Made by a program: the position numbers and the translations under genes. The notes beneath the pieces are model-generated. The model was not told the origin of the DNA, ran no database searches, and was given only the letters and a program-made list of their open reading frames with translations. From a virus (taxonomy: Duplodnaviria > Caudoviricetes), in IMG/VR virus record IMGVR_UViG_3300042890_001190, positions 1,951 through 65,950 of that record: 64,000 nt of DNA; one strand, written 5' to 3'. Position 1 is the first letter of the stretch, and each line of letters opens with the position of its first letter. Below are positions 2,108 through 23,685 of this stretch, in pieces.

Positions 2108-4690
2108 TTAGTTCCCCGACGGTTTAGCAGTCGGTTTTGGTTGTTGAAAAGCACGTTCGGCATGGTTCAGTTTTTGCGCGTGAATTTGACCGCCGTGCGC
2201 CATTTTTTGCTGGACTTGGGCTTGCTGCATTGCGGCTTGCTGCTGGCCTTGAGCTTGCTGCTGTTGGGCCTGAGCTTGCGCCTGCTGCAAGGCCTGCTGC
2301 TTTGCTGCCATCTCCATGGCGTGGGCCTCTTGCATTTGGGAAATTTCCATCTGCATTCTTTGCGCGGCCATCATTGGGTCTTGCCCGGATTTCTGAGCGG
2401 CCTCTTGAGCCTTAAGGCCAAGCTCTTCTGCGCGAATTTGCAGGTCGCCTTGGGCTTTCAGTTTCTTGATTTCCACTTCTTGCATCTTGATCTGCAACTC
2501 TTGCTGCTGCATCTGAATCAATGGGTCTTGCGCCTGCTGTTGGGCCTGTTGTTGAGCAACCTGACCCTTGCTTTGCGCCAGCACTTGCTGAGATGCTTGA
2601 GCCACAAGACGGGACAACTGCACCTCAACATCCTCTGGCAAGTCTTCATCAGGCTTGGGCATAGGTACGCCCAACTGCTCTTCAACCTTCTTGCGGTAGG
2701 AAAATGCCAAGTGCTCTGAGACGTGAGCCATGATCTCGGCTTGCATCTTTTGGGCTTGTGGGTTTTGCCCAATCTGCGCCGCCATCAACGGGTCTTGCAT
2801 CAAAGCCATATGAACTGCGATGTGTGCGTCATGGTCTTGGTAAATAAACGCCTTGGTGGGCTTTCCGTTTAAGAAGGCCATGTTCTCGCTCACCGGATCG
2901 CGTGGCTTCATGTCGTCTTCAATCGGAACAAGCTTGTCTGCGTTGCGCACACCCAACACTTCAATCATCTGACGGTGCAACTGCGGCAGGTCATAAATTT
3001 GCGGCGCACTTTGCGACAACTGGATCACAGCTTGGTACTGCATGATCCTTTGGGCCATGGTCGAGCTGTTGGGGTCCGACACTGGAATAACTTCCACCAT
3101 GTCGTAGTCTTCCCGCTTAGCCATGCGGTCGCCGCCTTGTGGCTCGTACTCATACTCACTTGGGGTGTTGTCCCGGATGATCTCTTTGAGGAGCTTAAAC
3201 TCCTGTTTCATCGAATAGTGGACACGCGCTTGGACGGCGCTCATGGTTTTGAGCTGTCTCTCAAGCAAAGCCAGAGTCGTGCCGACAGGAGAGTTGGCAC
3301 TCATGTCGCTGATGTTCATGTCAGCAATAGAACCAAGGCGTCTGCCTTCTTCTGTGATGCGCTCCAACAACGCAGCCAGAACTTGGCTTGGCTCCTTATA
3401 TGGCAGCGGCATGATGTTGTCGCGCACTGTGCCACCGGGCACATCCACATCTCGCCACTCACCCGGGGCGATTGGAGTGTCGTCTCCCTTGATCCTCAAG
3501 CCACGAGACTTTAAGCCGCCGGGTAGGTTGGACAGGGTTCCTGCATCCACCAACTGGCGGATCAGGGATGTGCCTGCACGAGCATAGCCGCCGATCAGGT
3601 GGATGTAGCCAAAGCCATACGCACCGAATCCGGGCACGTAGTCATATTGAACAAAATGCTGGCGCTTGAGTTTCTTGGGGTCTTTCTCGTTCCAGTTGCG
3701 GTACACCGACAGAACTTTGTTTGTACCCTTGTCGATGGTGACGATGTAAGGAAGAGCAATCTCATCCTCGTCCTCATATCCGGGCATGTCGTAGTCCACT
3801 TGAATCTCAAGGAACTGGTAACGCTCATCATCTGTTACTGAGTAGCCCTGCTCTTCGGCTTTCTTTTTTTCCACGTCGTTGTGGATCATGACGGGCTCAC
3901 CCAGCTCTACATCACGGTAGAAGCCTGCGACCTGAAGCTTGCGAACATCGTTCTTGGTCTTGCGCATCACATGGGTCACTCGTTCTGCTGAGCGAGCACC
4001 AGAGGAGCCATAGGGAATAACGATGTCCTCTGCAGGACAGAAGATAGACACTTGACGGCCAAGGTTGGGATCGAAGTAAACCTTCTTGAAGGCAGAACCT
4101 GCCAGACCCAAATTGAACAGCATGCGCTCATGCTCTGGGCGGTACTCGGGCATCCCGTCAACCAACTGGAAGTTCATGTCGGCACGAACACGTTCAGCCG
4201 CGTCTTCCTTCATCTTGTCGATTGCACCAATGATCTGCGTCTTGACTGGCCCTTGAGCGGGGAATGTCTCGATGATGGTCTCGGACTGGAACCTCACTGC
4301 GGCTTCAGTCAAGAGTGTGGAGAAAACTCCGCAGGCACCAGTCCAAGGCTCGGTGCGCTCTTCATACTTCATGCCAAGAACCTCAAGGCCCCTGACATAC
4401 ATCTCTACCCAGTCCTTGCGAGAAGCGATGTCGGACTCAACCTCGCCAACCAAGTCAGAGCCAAGCTTTTCTAGCTCACCCTCGTCCATGAATTCAGCCA
4501 AGTTGGCATCAAAATCAGGCTCATCGTCTTCTGGCATCAGATCAATGGCAATGCCATCAATCCCAATTTCAAGACCTTCCGGGTCTTCAATCATGATCTC
4601 AACCGCAGGGGTGTCGTCCTGCACAATGTCTGAGAAATCAAGACCCTCTGGGGCCTGTGCGAGGGATGAAACCATGCTGCTCGTTGCCAT
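2108..4690 (-). CDS. portal protein
   Basis: 860 aa immediately downstream of TerL; GSAFKKVYFD, GFGYIHLIGG, Q-rich C-terminal coiled coil (P22-like portal). Confidence 0.85.
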   Translation of the reverse strand: MATSSMVSSLAQAPEGLDFSDIVQDDTPAVEIMIEDPEGLEIGIDGIAIDLMPEDDEPDFDANLAEFMDEGELEKLGSDLVGEVESDIASRKDWVEMYVRGLEVLGMKYEERTEPWTGACGVFSTLLTEAAVRFQSETIIETFPAQGPVKTQIIGAIDKMKEDAAERVRADMNFQLVDGMPEYRPEHERMLFNLGLAGSAFKKVYFDPNLGRQVSIFCPAEDIVIPYGSSGARSAERVTHVMRKTKNDVRKLQVAGFYRDVELGEPVMIHNDVEKKKAEEQGYSVTDDERYQFLEIQVDYDMPGYEDEDEIALPYIVTIDKGTNKVLSVYRNWNEKDPKKLKRQHFVQYDYVPGFGAYGFGYIHLIGGYARAGTSLIRQLVDAGTLSNLPGGLKSRGLRIKGDDTPIAPGEWRDVDVPGGTVRDNIMPLPYKEPSQVLAALLERITEEGRRLGSIADMNISDMSANSPVGTTLALLERQLKTMSAVQARVHYSMKQEFKLLKEIIRDNTPSEYEYEPQGGDRMAKREDYDMVEVIPVSDPNSSTMAQRIMQYQAVIQLSQSAPQIYDLPQLHRQMIEVLGVRNADKLVPIEDDMKPRDPVSENMAFLNGKPTKAFIYQDHDAHIAVHMALMQDPLMAAQIGQNPQAQKMQAEIMAHVSEHLAFSYRKKVEEQLGVPMPKPDEDLPEDVEVQLSRLVAQASQQVLAQSKGQVAQQQAQQQAQDPLIQMQQQELQIKMQEVEIKKLKAQGDLQIRAEELGLKAQEAAQKSGQDPMMAAQRMQMEISQMQEAHAMEMAAKQQALQQAQAQAQQQQAQGQQQAAMQQAQVQQKMAHGGQIHAQKLNHAERAFQQPKPTAKPSGN

Positions 4691-20470: not shown

Positions 20471-20556
20471 CCTGTAAACACCGCTGGATACCCGGCGACA
20501 ACCAAGACCGACCCGCATACCGTTGCACCCGCTGTGGTGATTGGAGATTTGTATGA
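20467..20556 (+). CDS. 29-aa Zn-ribbon peptide (MTCKHRWIPG..YRCTRCG)
   Basis: not in ORF track; ATGA overlaps; paralog of 17474..17569. Confidence 0.6.
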   Translation: MTCKHRWIPGDNQDRPAYRCTRCGDWRFV

Positions 20557-20678
20557 CCGATTTTGTAGAGTTTATTTGGATGTGGGCCGTGGGCATGATA
20601 TTGCTGGTAACGCTGCCCATCTGGTTTATCCCGTACACCGCTTATAGGGCTTGGAAATTTTTTAAGGAAAGCACATGA
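20553..20678 (+). CDS. 41-aa single-pass membrane peptide
   Basis: not in ORF track; MTDFVEFIWMWAVGMILLVTLPIWFIPY..; ATGA overlaps. Confidence 0.55.
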   Translation: MTDFVEFIWMWAVGMILLVTLPIWFIPYTAYRAWKFFKEST

Positions 20679-20863
20679 AAAAAGACTCCAAAGCATGGGC
20701 CATCAAGCTCAGAGGCCGTAACTTCTACTTGTCCAGCACTGGGTATCCGTGGACATTCATGACCAAGAAAGAGGCCGAGAGCTTCGCCCGAAACGTGGCG
20801 CGGCACTACGGCACAACAGCTCAACCAATCCGCGTCAGAGTACGCATAGAGGAGCAATCATGA
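20675..20863 (+). CDS. hypothetical protein
   Basis: 62 aa, SD AAGGA. Confidence 0.65.
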   Translation: MKKDSKAWAIKLRGRNFYLSSTGYPWTFMTKKEAESFARNVARHYGTTAQPIRVRVRIEEQS

Positions 20864-21051
20864 TCAACGTATACCCAACCCGCATCGAGGCCGCAGACGA
20901 GGACGGCAACATCCTGTTCGCGCTTCAAATGGAAGATGCCCACTGCTGCACCATTGAGATCAAGAACCCACTGGTACTGAGCAATGGCAACCTAGAGCAA
21001 GTGCTGACCGCCGTGCGCCGTGGCGTGCAGATGCTTGGACTGGAGGACTGA
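20860..21051 (+). CDS. hypothetical protein
   Basis: ATG 20860 after GAGGAG. Confidence 0.65.
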   Translation: MINVYPTRIEAADEDGNILFALQMEDAHCCTIEIKNPLVLSNGNLEQVLTAVRRGVQMLGLED

Positions 21052-21068
21052 GCCGCTACGCTCCGGGA

Positions 21069-21093
21069 AGCCCGCCACCGTGCGGGTTTTTTT
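21069..21093 (+). terminator. rho-independent terminator
   Basis: GCCCGC-CACCGT-GCGGGT plus T run at a convergent junction. Confidence 0.7.
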
Positions 21094-21448
21094 ACGCCAG
21101 CATCTCACCCATTGCTGCTTGAGCCAAGGCGTCTGTGTGCTCGCAATCCTCCCATGGCGGAGTGGTGCAGTTGCACAGTGGCACGAAAACAGCAGGGCCG
21201 GTAATGACAGGCTTTGGGGCATGAACTTTGGGTTGGCTTTTCGGCTTCAATTGCTTTGATGGCTTTACCCTCTTGCCGCCATACCAATCCTTGACGTCCT
21301 GACCCATCCAGAGGGCGAAGGCACGTATGTCCAAAGGGTCAATGACGTACCAAGTTTTCCGGGCCGCATCCCAGCGAGCACCTTTGCTTTTTGCCAAGTC
21401 CTTTTGGCTGAACGGAACGTGCAAATCAACTCTCATTTCCATCTCCAA
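21092..21448 (-). CDS. DUF5710-like protein
   Basis: LHVPFSQKDLAKSKGARWDAARKTWY motif; start uncertain (TTG 21448 or nearby ATG). Confidence 0.7.
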   Translation of the reverse strand: MEMEMRVDLHVPFSQKDLAKSKGARWDAARKTWYVIDPLDIRAFALWMGQDVKDWYGGKRVKPSKQLKPKSQPKVHAPKPVITGPAVFVPLCNCTTPPWEDCEHTDALAQAAMGEMLA

Positions 21449-21449
21449 A

Positions 21450-22048
21450 TTTTTGGACGAGTTTCCACTTACCCATGTATCCTGCCTGCCCTCCCCGTGT
21501 TCACTGGGGCGAGGGTTAGGGGCTACGTGAACCCTTTATCGACCTGACTTGCCCTGTTCGTTGCCTGCCTAAGCAGTTCCTACTGTGAGCTATCGGAGCC
21601 TAGTCCGCCTGCCTTCTGGCTTAGCGTTACAGAGAGGATGATGGCCCTCTGTACGTGCATCACAGATCGCTCTGTGAACCCAGACGTTTCCATTGCTGGA
21701 AATATGGATTTTCCCCTTGCGGGGAGGTCGTTTATTCCGTTCGCTCTCGCTACTTGGACACTCGGTTTAAAGTGGGGTTGGCCTTTTCAGTGTTCCCTTC
21801 GCTACCGCCATGGGGGACTGGTCTGGAGTGGGTGCCGGAGATTTCTGCCGCATAAGCTAACGCGCCCTGACGGGTGGGCGGCACAAATGCAAAAAGCTCT
21901 TTAGTCGGGGATCGAGCTTTAGGCTTGGTTGCCGCCAATCCGCAGTGCTGTAACACGTACGAATAGCATTGACGAAGCCCGAGCACCCACTAAAGAGCTT
22001 TCGGATGTCGCTTTACAGAGCTAAGCCGGGTTACCAATCCGACTATGG
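21450..22048 (-). ncRNA. putative ~600-nt structured RNA
   Basis: no credible CDS; own promoter; three perfect GNRA hairpins on the minus strand; 13-bp long-range stem 21893-21905/21989-22001. Confidence 0.55.
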
Positions 22049-22052
22049 CGTC

Positions 22053-22082
22053 AGTATATCAAAGACGTTGGTGGACGTGCAA
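22053..22082 (-). promoter_or_regulatory. sigma70 promoter of the structured RNA
   Basis: TTGCAC-18 nt-TATACT with TG extended -10. Confidence 0.65.
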
Positions 22083-22084
22083 GC

Positions 22085-22110
22085 AAAAAAACCCCACGTC
22101 TGAGGTGGGG
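22085..22110 (-). terminator. rho-independent terminator
   Basis: CCCCAC-CTCAGAC-GTGGGG-T7. Confidence 0.8.
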
Positions 22111-22144
22111 TAAATTCACTCAAGGAGAAACACCATGAAACACG
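22085..22144 (-). ncRNA. putative ~60-nt anti-RBS small RNA
   Basis: bounded by promoter 22150-22178 and terminator; contains GUUUCAUGGUGUUUCUCCUUGAGU (anti-AUG plus anti-SD). Confidence 0.55.
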
Positions 22145-22149
22145 CCTGT

Positions 22150-22178
22150 AGTTTAGCCGCAGGTGCGCAGCAGTGCAA
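22150..22178 (-). promoter_or_regulatory. sigma70 promoter inside the 3' end of the VRR-NUC gene
   Basis: TTGCAC-17 nt-TAAACT; the -10 overlaps the stop codon. Confidence 0.6.
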
Positions 22179-22437
22179 CGGCCTCTTCTACGCTGTTCAC
22201 GATGTACAGGTCTGATCCCGGCCACTCGTCGTGGAACTTCTGCTCCGCGTCCGTCAGCCGGCGTGCCGATGGCGACTTAGCCCCGTCCTTCACCTCAATC
22301 AGCAGGGTCTCCCCACGGTAGCTCACCAGCAGGTCAAACAGCCCCTCGTCGTTGATCTGCTTGACGTAAGCACCCTCGGCACGCATGGCTGCCACGATCT
22401 CTTTTTCGTTGTCGTCTCTGCGAGCTGCTCGTCTCAT
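22153..22437 (-). CDS. VRR-NUC / PD-(D/E)XK nuclease (resolvase-like)
   Basis: RRAARRDDNEKEIV..GLFDLLV..LIEVKDG..LTDAEQKFHDEW. Confidence 0.8.
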   Translation of the reverse strand: MRRAARRDDNEKEIVAAMRAEGAYVKQINDEGLFDLLVSYRGETLLIEVKDGAKSPSARRLTDAEQKFHDEWPGSDLYIVNSVEEAVALLRTCG

Positions 22438-22482
22438 AGGGTTTGTCCTGAGAAAAATATATTGCATTCATCGTAACAGATG

Positions 22483-22511
22483 TTGTGTTGTTGGCTTATA
22501 CCTGATACATT
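22483..22511 (+). promoter_or_regulatory. putative promoter of the recombination operon
   Basis: TTGTGT-17 nt-TACATT with TG extension; same TGATACATT as at 7672. Confidence 0.5.
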
Positions 22512-22541
22512 AAAGGCTCACTCACCACACAGGAGCAGGGA

Positions 22542-22793
22542 ATGACACCAGAAGAAGAGCACAAGGAAGGGATGGAGACTCTTTACCGGGCAGTGCATAT
22601 CGCCAACAAGTTTGGCCCACTGATCGTTGAAGACGCAGACAAACTTGGCGGCACAGCAGCCACGGCGGCAGCCATCATGCTGTCCACGTTCACAAGCGCC
22701 ATGGGCATGACCTTGCACGATGCTATGGGCCTGTTCATGGCGGTGCATAAGCAGACCATGGCAATGGAGCGCGAAGATGAAGCTGACCAATAA
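22542..22793 (+). CDS. hypothetical protein
   Basis: 83 aa, SD CAGGAG. Confidence 0.65.
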   Translation: MTPEEEHKEGMETLYRAVHIANKFGPLIVEDADKLGGTAATAAAIMLSTFTSAMGMTLHDAMGLFMAVHKQTMAMEREDEADQ

Positions 22794-23685
22794 CTTCGGC
22801 ATGCCTGAGACGATCCTCAACGTGATCGCACGGCCACAGTACAGCAAGGGCAAAGCCAACATGTCTGTGACGGAGCTGCTCAACAGTCCACGGATTGTCC
22901 AGCTCAAGCGCAAGCATTGGAATGACCTGACAGAGGACGCAGCCGACATGGTGTGGTCCATCTTCGGCACGGCCATTCACAACATCTTGGAGCACGGCAA
23001 GGGCGACAACCACATCGTTGAAGAGCGTATTCACATTGAACTGGACGGCATGCACATCAGCGGCGCTATTGACCTGCAAGAGGTGGAGCCAGACGGCATC
23101 ATCGTGTCGGACTACAAGACCGTCGGCGCGTGGTCGGTGCTTAACGAGAAGCAGGACTGGCACAACCAACTCAACAGCTACGCCTACCTTGTTGAAGCGG
23201 CCAAGAAGCTGCCCGTGATCAAGTTGCAGATCGTGGCTATCGTGCGCGACTGGAGCCGCCGTGACGCAGCAACACGCGAGGGATACCCCAAGGCACCCAT
23301 CGTGGTGATTGACATCCCTCTGTGGTCGTTTGAAGAGCGCGAAGCCTACGTCCGCAGCCGCATCTCTTTGCATGGCGACGCACTTTTTGAGATGGAGACT
23401 GACGGCGAGATGCCTGAATGCACGCCCGAGGAGTGTTGGGAAAAGCCAACAATGTACGCCCTGAAGAAGGATGGCAACGTCCGGGCCAAGAGCGTACACG
23501 AAACAAGCGAGGCAGCAGACACGGCTCTGGCTGCCGCAACAGAAAAAGCCAAGAAGGGCGAGAAGTTCCTGATCGAAGTTCGTGAGGGGAACCGCACTCG
23601 CTGTTCTAGCTTTTGCCAAGTGGCTGGCATGTGCAGCCAATATCAAAAGTATCTTTCTACCAAGCCAACTCAAGGAGAAATCTAA
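22777..23685 (+). CDS. PD-(D/E)XK exonuclease (Cas4/RecB-like)
   Basis: GTAIHNILE, EERI, ISGAIDL, VSDYKT, QLNSYA, C-terminal RCSSFCQV..C. Confidence 0.82.
   Translation: MKLTNNFGMPETILNVIARPQYSKGKANMSVTELLNSPRIVQLKRKHWNDLTEDAADMVWSIFGTAIHNILEHGKGDNHIVEERIHIELDGMHISGAIDLQEVEPDGIIVSDYKTVGAWSVLNEKQDWHNQLNSYAYLVEAAKKLPVIKLQIVAIVRDWSRRDAATREGYPKAPIVVIDIPLWSFEEREAYVRSRISLHGDALFEMETDGEMPECTPEECWEKPTMYALKKDGNVRAKSVHETSEAADTALAAATEKAKKGEKFLIEVREGNRTRCSSFCQVAGMCSQYQKYLSTKPTQGEI

What the first reader, a model, noticed from the sequence alone, without database searches (positions are those of the whole stretch)
21450..22082. Promoter-driven ~600-nt structured non-coding RNA rich in GNRA tetraloops
Seen: the largest gene-free stretch in a densely packed genome, with its own promoter (TTGCAC-18-TATACT, extended -10). 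Three adjacent perfect hairpins carry GNRA loops only on the promoter strand: TCCCC-GCAA-GGGGA (21712-21725), TTTCCA-GCAA-TGGAAA (21687-21702), TCACAGA-GCGA-TCTGTGA (21660-21677). Further stems: TACAGAG/CTCTGTA (21628-21653), a GC stem at 21489-21515, a 13-bp long-range stem (21893/21989), and CGGATTGG twice near the 5' end, loosely like c4/CI antisense-RNA leaders. It runs into a DUF5710 gene. Inference: an undescribed large phage ncRNA; since no initiator protein is evident, a primer/origin RNA role is possible, as is a ribozyme or scaffold.
Basis: partly seen in the sequence, partly recalled or inferred. Interest (0 to 1): 0.82.

Follow-up and report, generated by a model that had tools for sequence, protein, structure and literature searches.

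The report
Two tandem structured phage RNA genes
The largest gene-free gap of this lake-phage genome holds two separate, conserved folded RNAs of unknown function, one locked by two loop-to-loop pairings, and neither matches any catalogued RNA family.

Summary
Every hairpin, the 13-bp long-range stem and the TTGCAC-18-TGnTATACT promoter are at the stated coordinates on the minus strand. The reading as one ~600-nt RNA is only partly right.

The gap holds two independent RNA modules:
- **Module A (about 22046-21891).** A ~155-nt RNA that starts at a conserved sigma70-type promoter and ends in a long helix plus a U-run. A relaxed pattern finds it in 86 viral contigs. 29 of its 56 pairs show compensatory changes, and two loop-loop (kissing) pairings both covary.
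- **Module B+C (about 21884-21465).** A ~420-nt RNA carrying the GNRA-capped hairpins. It belongs to a second family found in about 40 viral contigs, and 34 of 37 unique copies lack module A upstream.

Neither module matches Rfam 15 and neither has a conserved reading frame. Both are better conserved than the flanking genes (100% and 97.7% identity, against 89-92%). Short lake metatranscriptome contigs lie inside the gap, and one bridges the A/B junction.

In related phages the same slot holds other RNAs, including Betaproteobacteria-1 and a tRNA-like RNA. Function is unknown. I read the gap as a modular phage ncRNA island. I found no support for a primer/origin role, and the c4/CI resemblance failed its tests.

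The parts
22153..22467 (-). Upstream 104-aa gene.
   Evidence: ORF. It has no Pfam family. A 95-aa homologue matches PHROG endonuclease and resolvase families. 109 related stretches were found in viral contigs.
22091..22111 (-). Intrinsic terminator of the upstream gene: ACCCCAC...GTGGGGT followed by T7.
   Evidence: Terminator scan. It is conserved in relatives.
22053..22082 (-). Sigma70-type promoter: -35 TTGCAC, 18-nt spacer, extended -10 TGaTATACT.
   Evidence: Coordinates. It is conserved, with functional variants such as TATAAT and TACAAT, ahead of module A in other contigs. The same promoter (35 of 37 nt) drives a different small RNA in L010.
21889..22046 (-). Module A RNA, about 155 nt. 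Helices: P1 22044-22024 (loop AUUGGUAAC 22038-22030); P1b 22021-22010 (loop CUGUAA); P2 22001-21989 with 21905-21893; P3 21982-21975 with 21919-21912; P4 21967-21934 (loop UUACAG 21953-21948); P5 21933-21922 (loop AACCAA). U-run at 21895-21891. Kissing pair K1 joins the P1b loop to the P4 loop. Kissing pair K2 joins UUGGU 22037-22033 to ACCAA 21929-21925.
   Evidence: The covariance model R1 hits 21866-22048(-) at 128.5 bits. Pair counts are, the loop-loop test and the K2 covariation. Coordinates.
21465..21884 (-). Module B+C RNA, about 420 nt. Conserved 5' head 21871-21854. Hairpin with a CAGAAAUCU loop inside 21853-21820. Conserved core CCAAGUAGCGAGAGCGAACGGAAUAAAC 21757-21730. GNRA hairpins at 21725-21712, 21702-21687 and 21677-21660. 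Stem 21653-21628. CCGAUAG 21596-21585. GAUAAAGG 21540-21533. GC stem 21515-21489. Conserved tail CAUGGGUAAGUGG 21477-21465.
   Evidence: Family found. Coordinates.
21092..21448 (-). Downstream DUF5710 gene. The likely start is the ATG at 21436, preceded by GGAG.
   Evidence: Pfam DUF5710, E = 2.1e-15. This gene follows the RNA only in the two near-identical relatives L005 and L006, plus one distant case, among 80 loci.

Best explanation
The gap is a phage ncRNA island made of two separate RNA genes in tandem on the minus strand.

**Transcription (inferred).** After the terminator of the upstream gene, a host-type (sigma70) promoter starts transcription near 22046.

**Module A (fold shown by covariation).** The first ~155 nt fold into a multi-helix junction (P3, P4, P5) closed by a 13-bp helix, P2. 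Two 5' hairpins (P1, P1b) lock it by pairing loop-to-loop with P5 and P4. P2 is followed directly by a U-run.

**Termination and read-through (inferred).** I infer that most transcripts end at the U-run as a compact, stable small RNA. A fraction reads through into the second RNA, which has no promoter of its own. That RNA is a ~420-nt ornate molecule with GNRA-capped hairpins whose 5' and 3' ends pair. Read-through would then continue into the DUF5710 gene.

**Modularity (shown).** The two RNAs are independent, exchangeable modules. Related phages combine module A with other RNAs, and combine B+C with other promoter-proximal small RNAs.

**Function (inferred, weakly).** Both most likely act as folded, trans-acting RNAs that are recognised by shape, for example by binding a protein or assembling with themselves. 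They are unlikely to be antisense regulators or leaders of one gene. Their place in a hypervariable accessory slot of the replication/recombination module, sometimes beside tRNA genes, suggests a host-takeover or counter-defence role. That role is a guess.
For: **Module A**
- The strict pattern hits 79 viral contigs and the relaxed pattern hits 86.
- 62 unique copies were aligned. 93.5% of cells pair, against 25-50% when partners are slid. 29 of 56 pairs change on both sides. The covariation score is 0.326, against at most 0.081 slid. 0 of 500 shuffles reach it.
- K1: 55 of 62 copies have at least 6 nt of perfect complementarity between the P1b and P4 loops, using many different sequences. Only 188 of 2000 mismatched pairs of copies reach that.
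- K2: all 5 copies with P5 loop AGCCAA have P1 loop GUGGC, a U-A to C-G change.
- Forward covariance-model scores are 118-186 bits. Antisense scores at the same loci are at most 29 bits.
- Invariant G-U pairs in P3 exist only on this strand.
- Promoter-like sites occur in 40 of 65 copies, against 2 of 65 shuffled. A U-run of at least 4 follows in 67 of 67.

**Module B+C**
- The core pattern hits 39 viral contigs. 34 of 37 unique copies have no module A within 420 nt upstream.
- On 25 sequences, 94.7% of cells pair, against 33-49% slid. 25 of 94 pairs change on both sides. The covariation score is 0.186, against at most 0.068 slid.

**Both modules**
- No frame is open in more than 19 of 62 module A copies. 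No frame is open in any of 25 B+C copies, in any of the six frames.
- Identity between the window and L006 is 160/160 for module A and 418/428 for B+C. The flanking genes are 88.9% and 91.6% identical.
- There is no Rfam match in the window or in typical copies.
- Three metatranscriptome runs from two studies hold short contigs only inside 21524-21983. One contig (21739-21983) bridges the U-run.
- Variants in those contigs are compensatory: 21664+21673, 21665+21672, and a paired 1-nt deletion at 21716+21721. GNRA loops are kept (GCGA to GUGA, GCAA to GUAA). 21676 and 21673 give G-U only on the minus strand.
- The downstream slot is modular. Betaproteobacteria-1 RNA follows module A in L085, L092, L150, L097 and L095, and a tRNA-like RNA follows it in L088.
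- Downstream genes differ between loci.
Against: - No transcript ends were mapped. The contigs from RNA libraries can contain DNA, have depth of about 3, and come from relatives.
- The window's -35 matches only 3 of 6, and the scanner did not call the promoter.
- If the P2/U-run terminator is efficient, B+C would be poorly expressed. Read-through is inferred from one bridging contig and from the absence of a second promoter.
- The B+C alignment is dominated by close relatives. Its structure was derived from the same alignment, which inflates agreement.
- Two variants at the base of the 21653-21628 stem (21628 T>G, 21629 A>G) break pairs on the minus strand.
- 7 of 62 module A copies do not reach a perfect 6-nt K1 pairing, and L143 has none.
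- Covariation cannot tell whether the loop-loop pairs form within one molecule or between molecules.
- No result bears on the proposed biological role.
- Pieces of these RNAs may already be among the unnamed candidates of Fremin et al. 2023 (PMC10690425).
Confidence: 0.72

Rival explanations
1. One functional ~600-nt RNA. Modules A and B+C would be domains of a single molecule that works only as a whole.
For: - B+C has no promoter of its own.
- Only about 10 nt separate the U-run from the B+C head.
- One RNA-library contig spans the junction.
- In most B+C loci some promoter-proximal small RNA lies upstream.
Against: - 34 of 37 unique B+C copies lack module A.
- Module A is followed by other RNAs or directly by a gene in other contigs.
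- Module A ends in a helix plus U-run in 67 of 67 copies.
- Each module closes on itself through its own terminal helix.
Confidence: 0.1
2. Module A is a riboswitch-like attenuator. Its junction would bind a ligand or factor, and the binding would stabilise P2. Because P2 doubles as the terminator stem, this would set how much transcription continues into B+C and the downstream genes.
For: - The closing helix of a conserved, tertiary-locked junction is immediately followed by a U-run in 67 of 67 copies.
- The junction strands are nearly invariant.
- The downstream RNAs lack promoters.
Against: - No conserved alternative (antiterminator) pairing was seen.
- Downstream cargo is heterogeneous, so it gives no hint of a ligand.
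- Other small-RNA classes with unrelated folds occupy the same position.
- No known aptamer model matches.
Confidence: 0.12
3. It is an origin or primer RNA. The promoter-driven transcript would prime or activate phage DNA replication, as ColE1 RNA II or T4 R-loop origins do.
For: - Module A lies in the replication/recombination module, among helicase, Toprim primase, exonuclease and resolvase genes.
- In about 19 loci it directly follows the primase-like gene.
Against: - There are no iterons and no AT-rich unwinding element.
- GC skew shows no turn here.
- Elaborate, covarying tertiary contacts and interchangeable unrelated RNA modules are not expected of a mere primer.
- The position varies among genomes and is sometimes beside the terminase gene.
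Confidence: 0.06
4. B+C is a cis-acting 5' leader that regulates the DUF5710 gene.
For: The RNA runs into the gene without a terminator. The Shine-Dalgarno sequence lies about 20 nt after the conserved tail.
Against: - DUF5710 follows the upstream gene in only 3 of 80 related loci.
- Other B+C copies are followed by unrelated or convergent genes.
Confidence: 0.03

Closest known systems
GOLLD and ROOL large ornate RNAs of phages and prophages
   Same: - Both kinds are phage-borne, promoter-driven, non-coding and highly structured, with function unknown.
- Both are often near tRNA genes. Here tRNAs lie just upstream in L176, L187 and L162.
- Both have covarying loop-loop pairs. In GOLLD and ROOL, loop-loop pairs first found by covariation proved to be bridges between molecules (passages read in bioRxiv 10.1101/2024.12.08.627333).
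   Different: - No match to their Rfam models.
- These RNAs are much smaller, about 155 and 310-420 nt.
- The sequence and helices are different.
- Two modules sit in tandem, and the first ends in a terminator-like helix.
Betaproteobacteria-1 RNA (Rfam RF02932)
   Same: It occupies the same slot, directly after the module A U-run, in L085 (101 bits) and in L092, L150, L097 and L095. It is also an orphan RNA of unknown function.
   Different: The window has no match to it. Its fold of three hairpins differs from B+C.
Terminator-ended bacterial and phage small RNAs
   Same: Module A has its own sigma70 promoter, a length of 130-180 nt, and a 3' helix followed by a U-run.
   Different: - The 3' helix closes an ~87-nt multi-helix junction rather than a short loop.
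- The fold is locked by two kissing pairs.
- No conserved single-stranded seed stands out.
P1/P7 c4 and P4 CI antisense RNAs
   Same: They are short phage RNAs with repeated recognition sequences.
   Different: - No covariance-model match.
- The first CGGAUUGG is the P1 loop, which pairs with the P5 loop.
- The second copy is not conserved in relatives.
Unnamed candidate structured RNAs from IMG/VR (Fremin, Bhatt and Kyrpides 2023, PMC10690425)
   Same: They come from the same data source and were found by the same kind of evidence, covariation in phage intergenic regions. I read the abstract and section 2.1.
   Different: Those candidates are 29-151 nt long (mean 67) and are named only in supplements that I could not open. 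Overlap is possible but unverified. Neither a full module A architecture with its kissing pairs nor the tandem island appears in the text I read.

Membership tests
Any Rfam 15 family (4227 models, including C4 antisense, GOLLD, ROOL, introns, ribozymes and riboswitches) | A covariance-model match at or near the family's gathering score | tested here: not met
   - Window 20500-23000 at E up to 10: only chance matches of 25 bits or less.
- Whole window at gathering score: 0 matches.
- Typical module A and B+C copies: none.
Betaproteobacteria-1 RNA (RF02932) | A match of at least 49.4 bits to the family model | tested here: not met
   There is none in the window. The feature is met in the related locus L085 at 101.2 bits, just after module A.
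tRNA / tmRNA | A cloverleaf or tmRNA detected by ARAGORN or the Rfam tRNA model | tested here: not met
   ARAGORN finds 0 genes in the window. The Rfam tRNA model gives no hit in the window.
c4 / CI-type antisense RNA | Two or more conserved repeats of the recognition sequence that pair with target sites | tested here: not met
   The second CGGATTGG is replaced in L012, L044, L011 and L009. The first is the P1 loop, which pairs inside the fold.
Intrinsic (Rho-independent) terminator | A G+C-rich stem followed at once by a U-run | tested here: met
   P2 is 13 bp in the window and is followed by UUUUU. A U-run of at least 4 is present in 67 of 67 copies.
Intrinsic (Rho-independent) terminator | A short hairpin loop of 3-8 nt | tested here: not met
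   P2 encloses about 87 nt that hold P3, P4 and P5. Whether it terminates was not testable here.
Riboswitch | A conserved aptamer upstream of a consistent class of genes, with an alternative expression-platform pairing | tested here: not met
   Downstream content varies between other RNAs, HNH endonuclease, 2OG-Fe(II) oxygenase and others. No conserved alternative pairing was seen.
Protein-coding gene | A reading frame kept open across homologues | tested here: not met
   The best frame is open in 19 of 62 module A copies. For B+C, 0 of 25 copies are open in any of the six frames.
Module A family (defined here) | P1, P1b, P2-P5, the two kissing pairs, a promoter before and a U-run after | tested here: met
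   The window copy scores 128.5 bits against R1. Its K1 pair is CUGUAA/UUACAG. Its K2 pair is UUGGU/ACCAA.
Module B+C family (defined here) | A GUCAGRGCGCGUUAGCU head, a CCNAGUAG...CGAACNGNAUANAC core, and CCGAUAG, GAUAAAG and GGGUAAG blocks linked by covarying long-range helices | tested here: met
   All blocks are present in the window. nhmmer gives a full-length match with L105, L145 and L010.

The most novel reading that the evidence does not exclude
Module A, and perhaps B+C, may be a self-assembling RNA. On this reading its two covarying loop-loop pairs (P1b with P4, P1 with P5) are partly or wholly bridges between molecules. Copies of a ~155-nt phage RNA would then build a defined RNA-only oligomer or cage, a small-scale counterpart of the ROOL and GOLLD nanocages. 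The phage would make it in bulk from a strong early promoter to trap or scaffold a host component.
Probability: 0.12. Interest if true: 0.9.

Novelty: new variant of a known kind. Interest (0 to 1): 0.72.

Why it matters
Orphan structured RNAs of phages such as GOLLD, ROOL and manA have recently proved to have unexpected architectures, yet few families are known. This gap gives two more.

Both have strong comparative support. One has a compact junction whose closing helix doubles as a terminator and which carries two covarying kissing pairs. Both sit in a modular ncRNA island where unrelated RNA modules, including the orphan Rfam family Betaproteobacteria-1, are swapped behind the same kind of promoter.

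That context links an orphan Rfam family to lytic lake phages. It also suggests that these phages carry interchangeable RNA cargo much as they carry tRNA or accessory-gene islands. Finally, it offers short, well-defined RNAs for structural and termination assays.

Tried and rejected
**Searches that found nothing or little**
- blastn of the gap against GenBank phages: no match.
- blastn of a typical module A against GenBank phages: no match.
- blastn of a typical B+C against GenBank phages: one uncultured record, head only.
- The strict module A pattern in 185,579 prokaryote genomes: 0 hits.
- The B+C core pattern in the same genomes: 1 hit. It lies in a 50,573-bp contig of a Sterolibacterium MAG. 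That contig has the same length as viral contig L200, so it is probably a binned phage contig and only a weak host hint.
- The window-type B+C core in viral contigs and in metagenome contigs: only the two near-identical relatives and one identical contig. Hairpins 2-4 therefore could not be tested on a deep alignment.
- Exonuclease protein search in cultured phages: only distant relatives, so no cultured system with this locus was found.

**Analyses that were uninformative**
- Rfam at permissive E-values and at gathering score on the whole window: nothing for either module.
- ARAGORN: no tRNA or tmRNA in the window.
- GC skew and direct repeats: no sign of an origin.

**Sequencing runs**
- In the RNA runs, no contig covers 21984-22047 or the flanking genes. 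This is not evidence of absence.
- Run X2 is probably DNA.

**Literature**
- Searches for 'Betaproteobacteria-1', for GOLLD/ROOL/phage, for HTVC023P, and for structured RNA/kissing loop/bacteriophage (listings only unless stated otherwise) gave no description of these RNAs.

**Tools and rows left out**
- Five B+C copies with a different 5' head (L167, L171, L187, L198, L199) were left out of alignment A4, so 25 of 30 unique copies were used.
- Alignment A5 from the model search mixes antisense matches and was not used for counts.

Full report
**The locus**

The window is positions 1951-65950 of a 65,950-bp IMG/VR virus record rated complete. The gap 21449-22152 lies between two minus-strand genes. 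Upstream is a 104-aa gene at 22467-22153 with no Pfam family. Downstream is a DUF5710 gene.

Reading the minus strand gives this order:
- the terminator of the upstream gene, 22111-22091 plus T7;
- TTGCAC (22082-22077), an 18-nt spacer, TG and TATACT (22058-22053);
- about 600 nt of non-coding sequence, up to the GGAG and the ATG at 21436.

By my ORF map the gap is the largest in the window, 704 nt against 450 for the next. The 600 nt fold better than shuffles on the minus strand (z = -2.32) and not on the plus strand (z = -0.92).

**The gap is a mosaic**

Using the upstream protein, I fetched 80 related loci from viral contigs. blastn and nhmmer of the gap against them gave a mosaic:
- Two contigs share the whole gap at 97% identity.
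- Some others share only the first ~170 nt after the promoter.
- Others share only a ~60-nt block after that.
- One shares only the distal part.

DUF5710 follows the upstream gene in only 3 of the 80 loci. This led me to treat the gap as modules.

**Module A (about 22046-21889)**

*Distribution and ends.*
- A pattern built from two conserved blocks hits 79 viral contigs. A relaxed version hits 86.
- The strict pattern hits none of 185,579 prokaryote genomes. A typical copy hits none of 50,697 GenBank phage records.
- Each copy is preceded by a sigma70-like promoter. 40 of 65 score at least 9 of 12, against 2 of 65 shuffled, and 38 have a perfect TATAAT.
- Each copy is followed by a U-run of at least 4, in 67 of 67.

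*Fold.* The 62 unique copies align as follows:
- hairpin P1, with an invariant UGGUA in its loop;
- a small hairpin P1b;
- a long helix P2 that closes a junction of P3, P4 and P5;
- the U-run.

*Support for the helices.* On this alignment 93.5% of cells pair, against 25-50% when partners are slid by 1-3 columns. 29 of 56 pairs change on both sides. The covariation score is 0.326, against at most 0.081 slid. No shuffle of 500 reaches any of these measures.

*Two loop-loop pairings.*
- The six loop bases of P1b are perfectly complementary to the P4 loop over at least 6 nt in 55 of 62 copies, with many different sequences. Only 188 of 2000 mismatched copy pairs reach that. All six pairs covary.
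- The P1 loop UUGGU is complementary to the P5 loop ACCAA. Both are invariant under the strict pattern. The relaxed pattern brought five copies with P5 loop AGCCAA, and all five have GUGGC in P1, a U-A to C-G exchange.

*Strand.* A covariance model scores forward copies at 118-186 bits and their antisense at 29 bits or less. The window copy scores 128.5 bits at 21866-22048. Invariant G-U pairs in P3 exist only on this strand.

**Module B+C (about 21884-21465)**

*Distribution.* Iterated nhmmer found full-length relatives in L105, L145 and L010, and the 5' head alone in many other loci. A core pattern hits 39 viral contigs. 34 of 37 unique copies have no module A within 420 nt upstream. This is therefore a separate family.

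*Structure.* I aligned 25 of the 30 unique copies, leaving out five that carry a different head. The RNAalifold structure has 94 pairs. 94.7% of cells pair, against 33-49% slid. 25 pairs change on both sides. The covariation score is 0.186, against at most 0.068 slid. Two caveats apply: many rows are close relatives, and the structure comes from the same alignment.

- The first hairpin (21725-21712) is a conserved helix of the family, with four covarying pairs. It is capped in most members by GAAA, GCAA or GUAA.
- The next two GNRA hairpins and the 21653-21628 stem lie in a variable insert specific to the window type.

*Variants in sequencing-run contigs.*
- 21664 A>G with 21673 T>C, and 21665 G>A with 21672 C>T, are compensatory.
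- One-base deletions at 21716 and 21721 together remove one pair.
- The loop changes keep GNRA (GCGA to GUGA, GCAA to GUAA).
- 21676 G>A, and 21673 T>C when it occurs alone, give G-U only on the minus strand.
- Against the model, 21628 T>G and 21629 A>G break the two basal pairs of the 21653-21628 stem.

**Not coding, not in Rfam, under selection**
- No frame is open in more than 19 of 62 module A copies. None is open in any of 25 B+C copies.
- Rfam 15 gives nothing for either module, in the window or in typical copies.
- ARAGORN finds no tRNA or tmRNA in the window.
- Between the window and L006, module A is 160/160 identical and B+C 418/428. The two flanking genes are 88.9% and 91.6% identical, and the region beyond them 83.1%.

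**Expression**

One search for runs gave four holders with small shares. When laid, three metatranscriptome runs from two studies hold short contigs (166-246 nt, depth about 3, 89-97% alike) that lie only within 21524-21983. One covers 21739-21983 and so bridges the U-run. The tool warns that RNA libraries can hold DNA, so this is only a weak hint. It points to transcription, and to read-through from module A into B+C.

**Context**

*Around module A.* The neighbours are replication and recombination genes:
- an SF2 helicase;
- a Toprim primase-like gene that ends at the module A promoter in about 19 loci;
- a PD-(D/E)XK exonuclease;
- the small endonuclease-like gene;
- a RuvC-like resolvase and a ParB-like protein;
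- an HNH endonuclease and a 2OG-Fe(II) oxygenase;
- sometimes the large terminase.

*Downstream of module A.* The content varies:
- Betaproteobacteria-1 RNA (RF02932, 101 bits in L085) follows in five loci.
- A long non-coding stretch with a tRNA-like domain follows in L088. ARAGORN calls nothing there.
- Two other RNA types share only the B head.
- In some loci a gene follows at once.

*Upstream of typical B+C copies.* Other promoter-plus-small-RNA-plus-U-run classes lie there, followed by a further conserved element. tRNA genes are sometimes just upstream. In L010 the window's own promoter (35 of 37 nt) drives one of those other small RNAs.

*The phage.* The nearest cultured relatives by large terminase are Phage DSL-LC04 (55.8%) and HTVC023P-type pelagiphages (about 48%). 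None has these RNAs.

**Interpretation**

*Shown:* there are two conserved, structured, non-coding elements on the promoter strand. They have independent distributions and sit in a slot where RNA modules are exchanged.

*Inferred:*
- Host RNA polymerase starts near 22046.
- P2 plus the U-run ends most transcripts.
- Read-through supplies B+C, which has no promoter of its own and begins about 10 nt after the U-run.

*Guessed:* both RNAs act in trans through their shape, in host takeover or counter-defence. This guess rests only on the hypervariable accessory context and on the parallel with GOLLD and ROOL.

The passages I read in bioRxiv 10.1101/2024.12.08.627333 say two relevant things. GOLLD and ROOL lie in phages near tRNA islands. 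Kissing loops first found by covariation turned out to be bridges between molecules in RNA-only cages. The same could hold for module A, and covariation cannot tell the two cases apart.

I found no support for an origin or primer role. The c4/CI resemblance failed its tests. A dedicated DUF5710 leader is contradicted by the context data.

**Novelty**

Neither module is in Rfam 15. My four literature searches found no description of them.

Noticed in passing
L085:1481-1598 (-); also L092, L150, L097, L095: The orphan Rfam family Betaproteobacteria-1 RNA (RF02932, 101 bits in L085) sits directly after the module A U-run in five viral contigs. This links that family to lytic lake phages.
   Followed up: partly
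L088:3000-3520 (-): After module A comes a non-coding stretch of about 400 nt. It holds a tRNA-like domain with an acceptor-like stem and a GGGTTCGATTCCC T-arm (Rfam tRNA 33.7 bits over 116 nt). ARAGORN calls no tRNA or tmRNA there.
   Followed up: partly
L163 (=L002) 4480-4600, L187, L167, L195; L165, L192, L197, L199 (=L010), L166, L176: At least two further classes of promoter-proximal small RNA, each ending in a long stem plus U-run, take the place of module A upstream of B+C. A conserved ~100-nt element (GAGACUGGG...CCCAGUCUC) lies between them and B+C. None has an Rfam match.
   Followed up: partly
L163/L164/L162 and L161/L128, about 280-345 nt after the shared head: Two other long non-coding elements share only the ~50-nt 5' head of the window's B+C (GUCAGGGCGCGUUAGCUUAUGCGGCAGAAAUCUCCGGCACCCA). 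They end in UUUUUUGA and otherwise differ from each other and from B+C.
   Followed up: partly
window:21514-21535: Nine of the ten differences between the window's B+C and its 97.7%-identical relative L005/L006 are packed into one ~20-nt patch. The other ~400 nt are almost invariant.
   Followed up: no
window:27345-33758 (-): A 2137-aa protein matches only the C-terminal ~900 residues of PHROG families whose profiles are about 2,800-3,900 residues long and carry no annotated function.
   Followed up: no
L210 (MAG contig, 50,573 bp) and L200 (viral contig, 50,573 bp): The only prokaryote-genome hit of the B+C core is a contig of a Sterolibacterium sp. MAG. It has exactly the length of an IMG/VR viral contig that holds the same motif. 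It is probably a phage contig binned with a betaproteobacterial genome.
   Followed up: no
window:19287-19763 (+): An HNH_3 + AP2 homing-endonuclease-like gene lies about 1.7 kb from the RNA island. HNH endonuclease genes also follow the RNA slot in 15 related loci.
   Followed up: no
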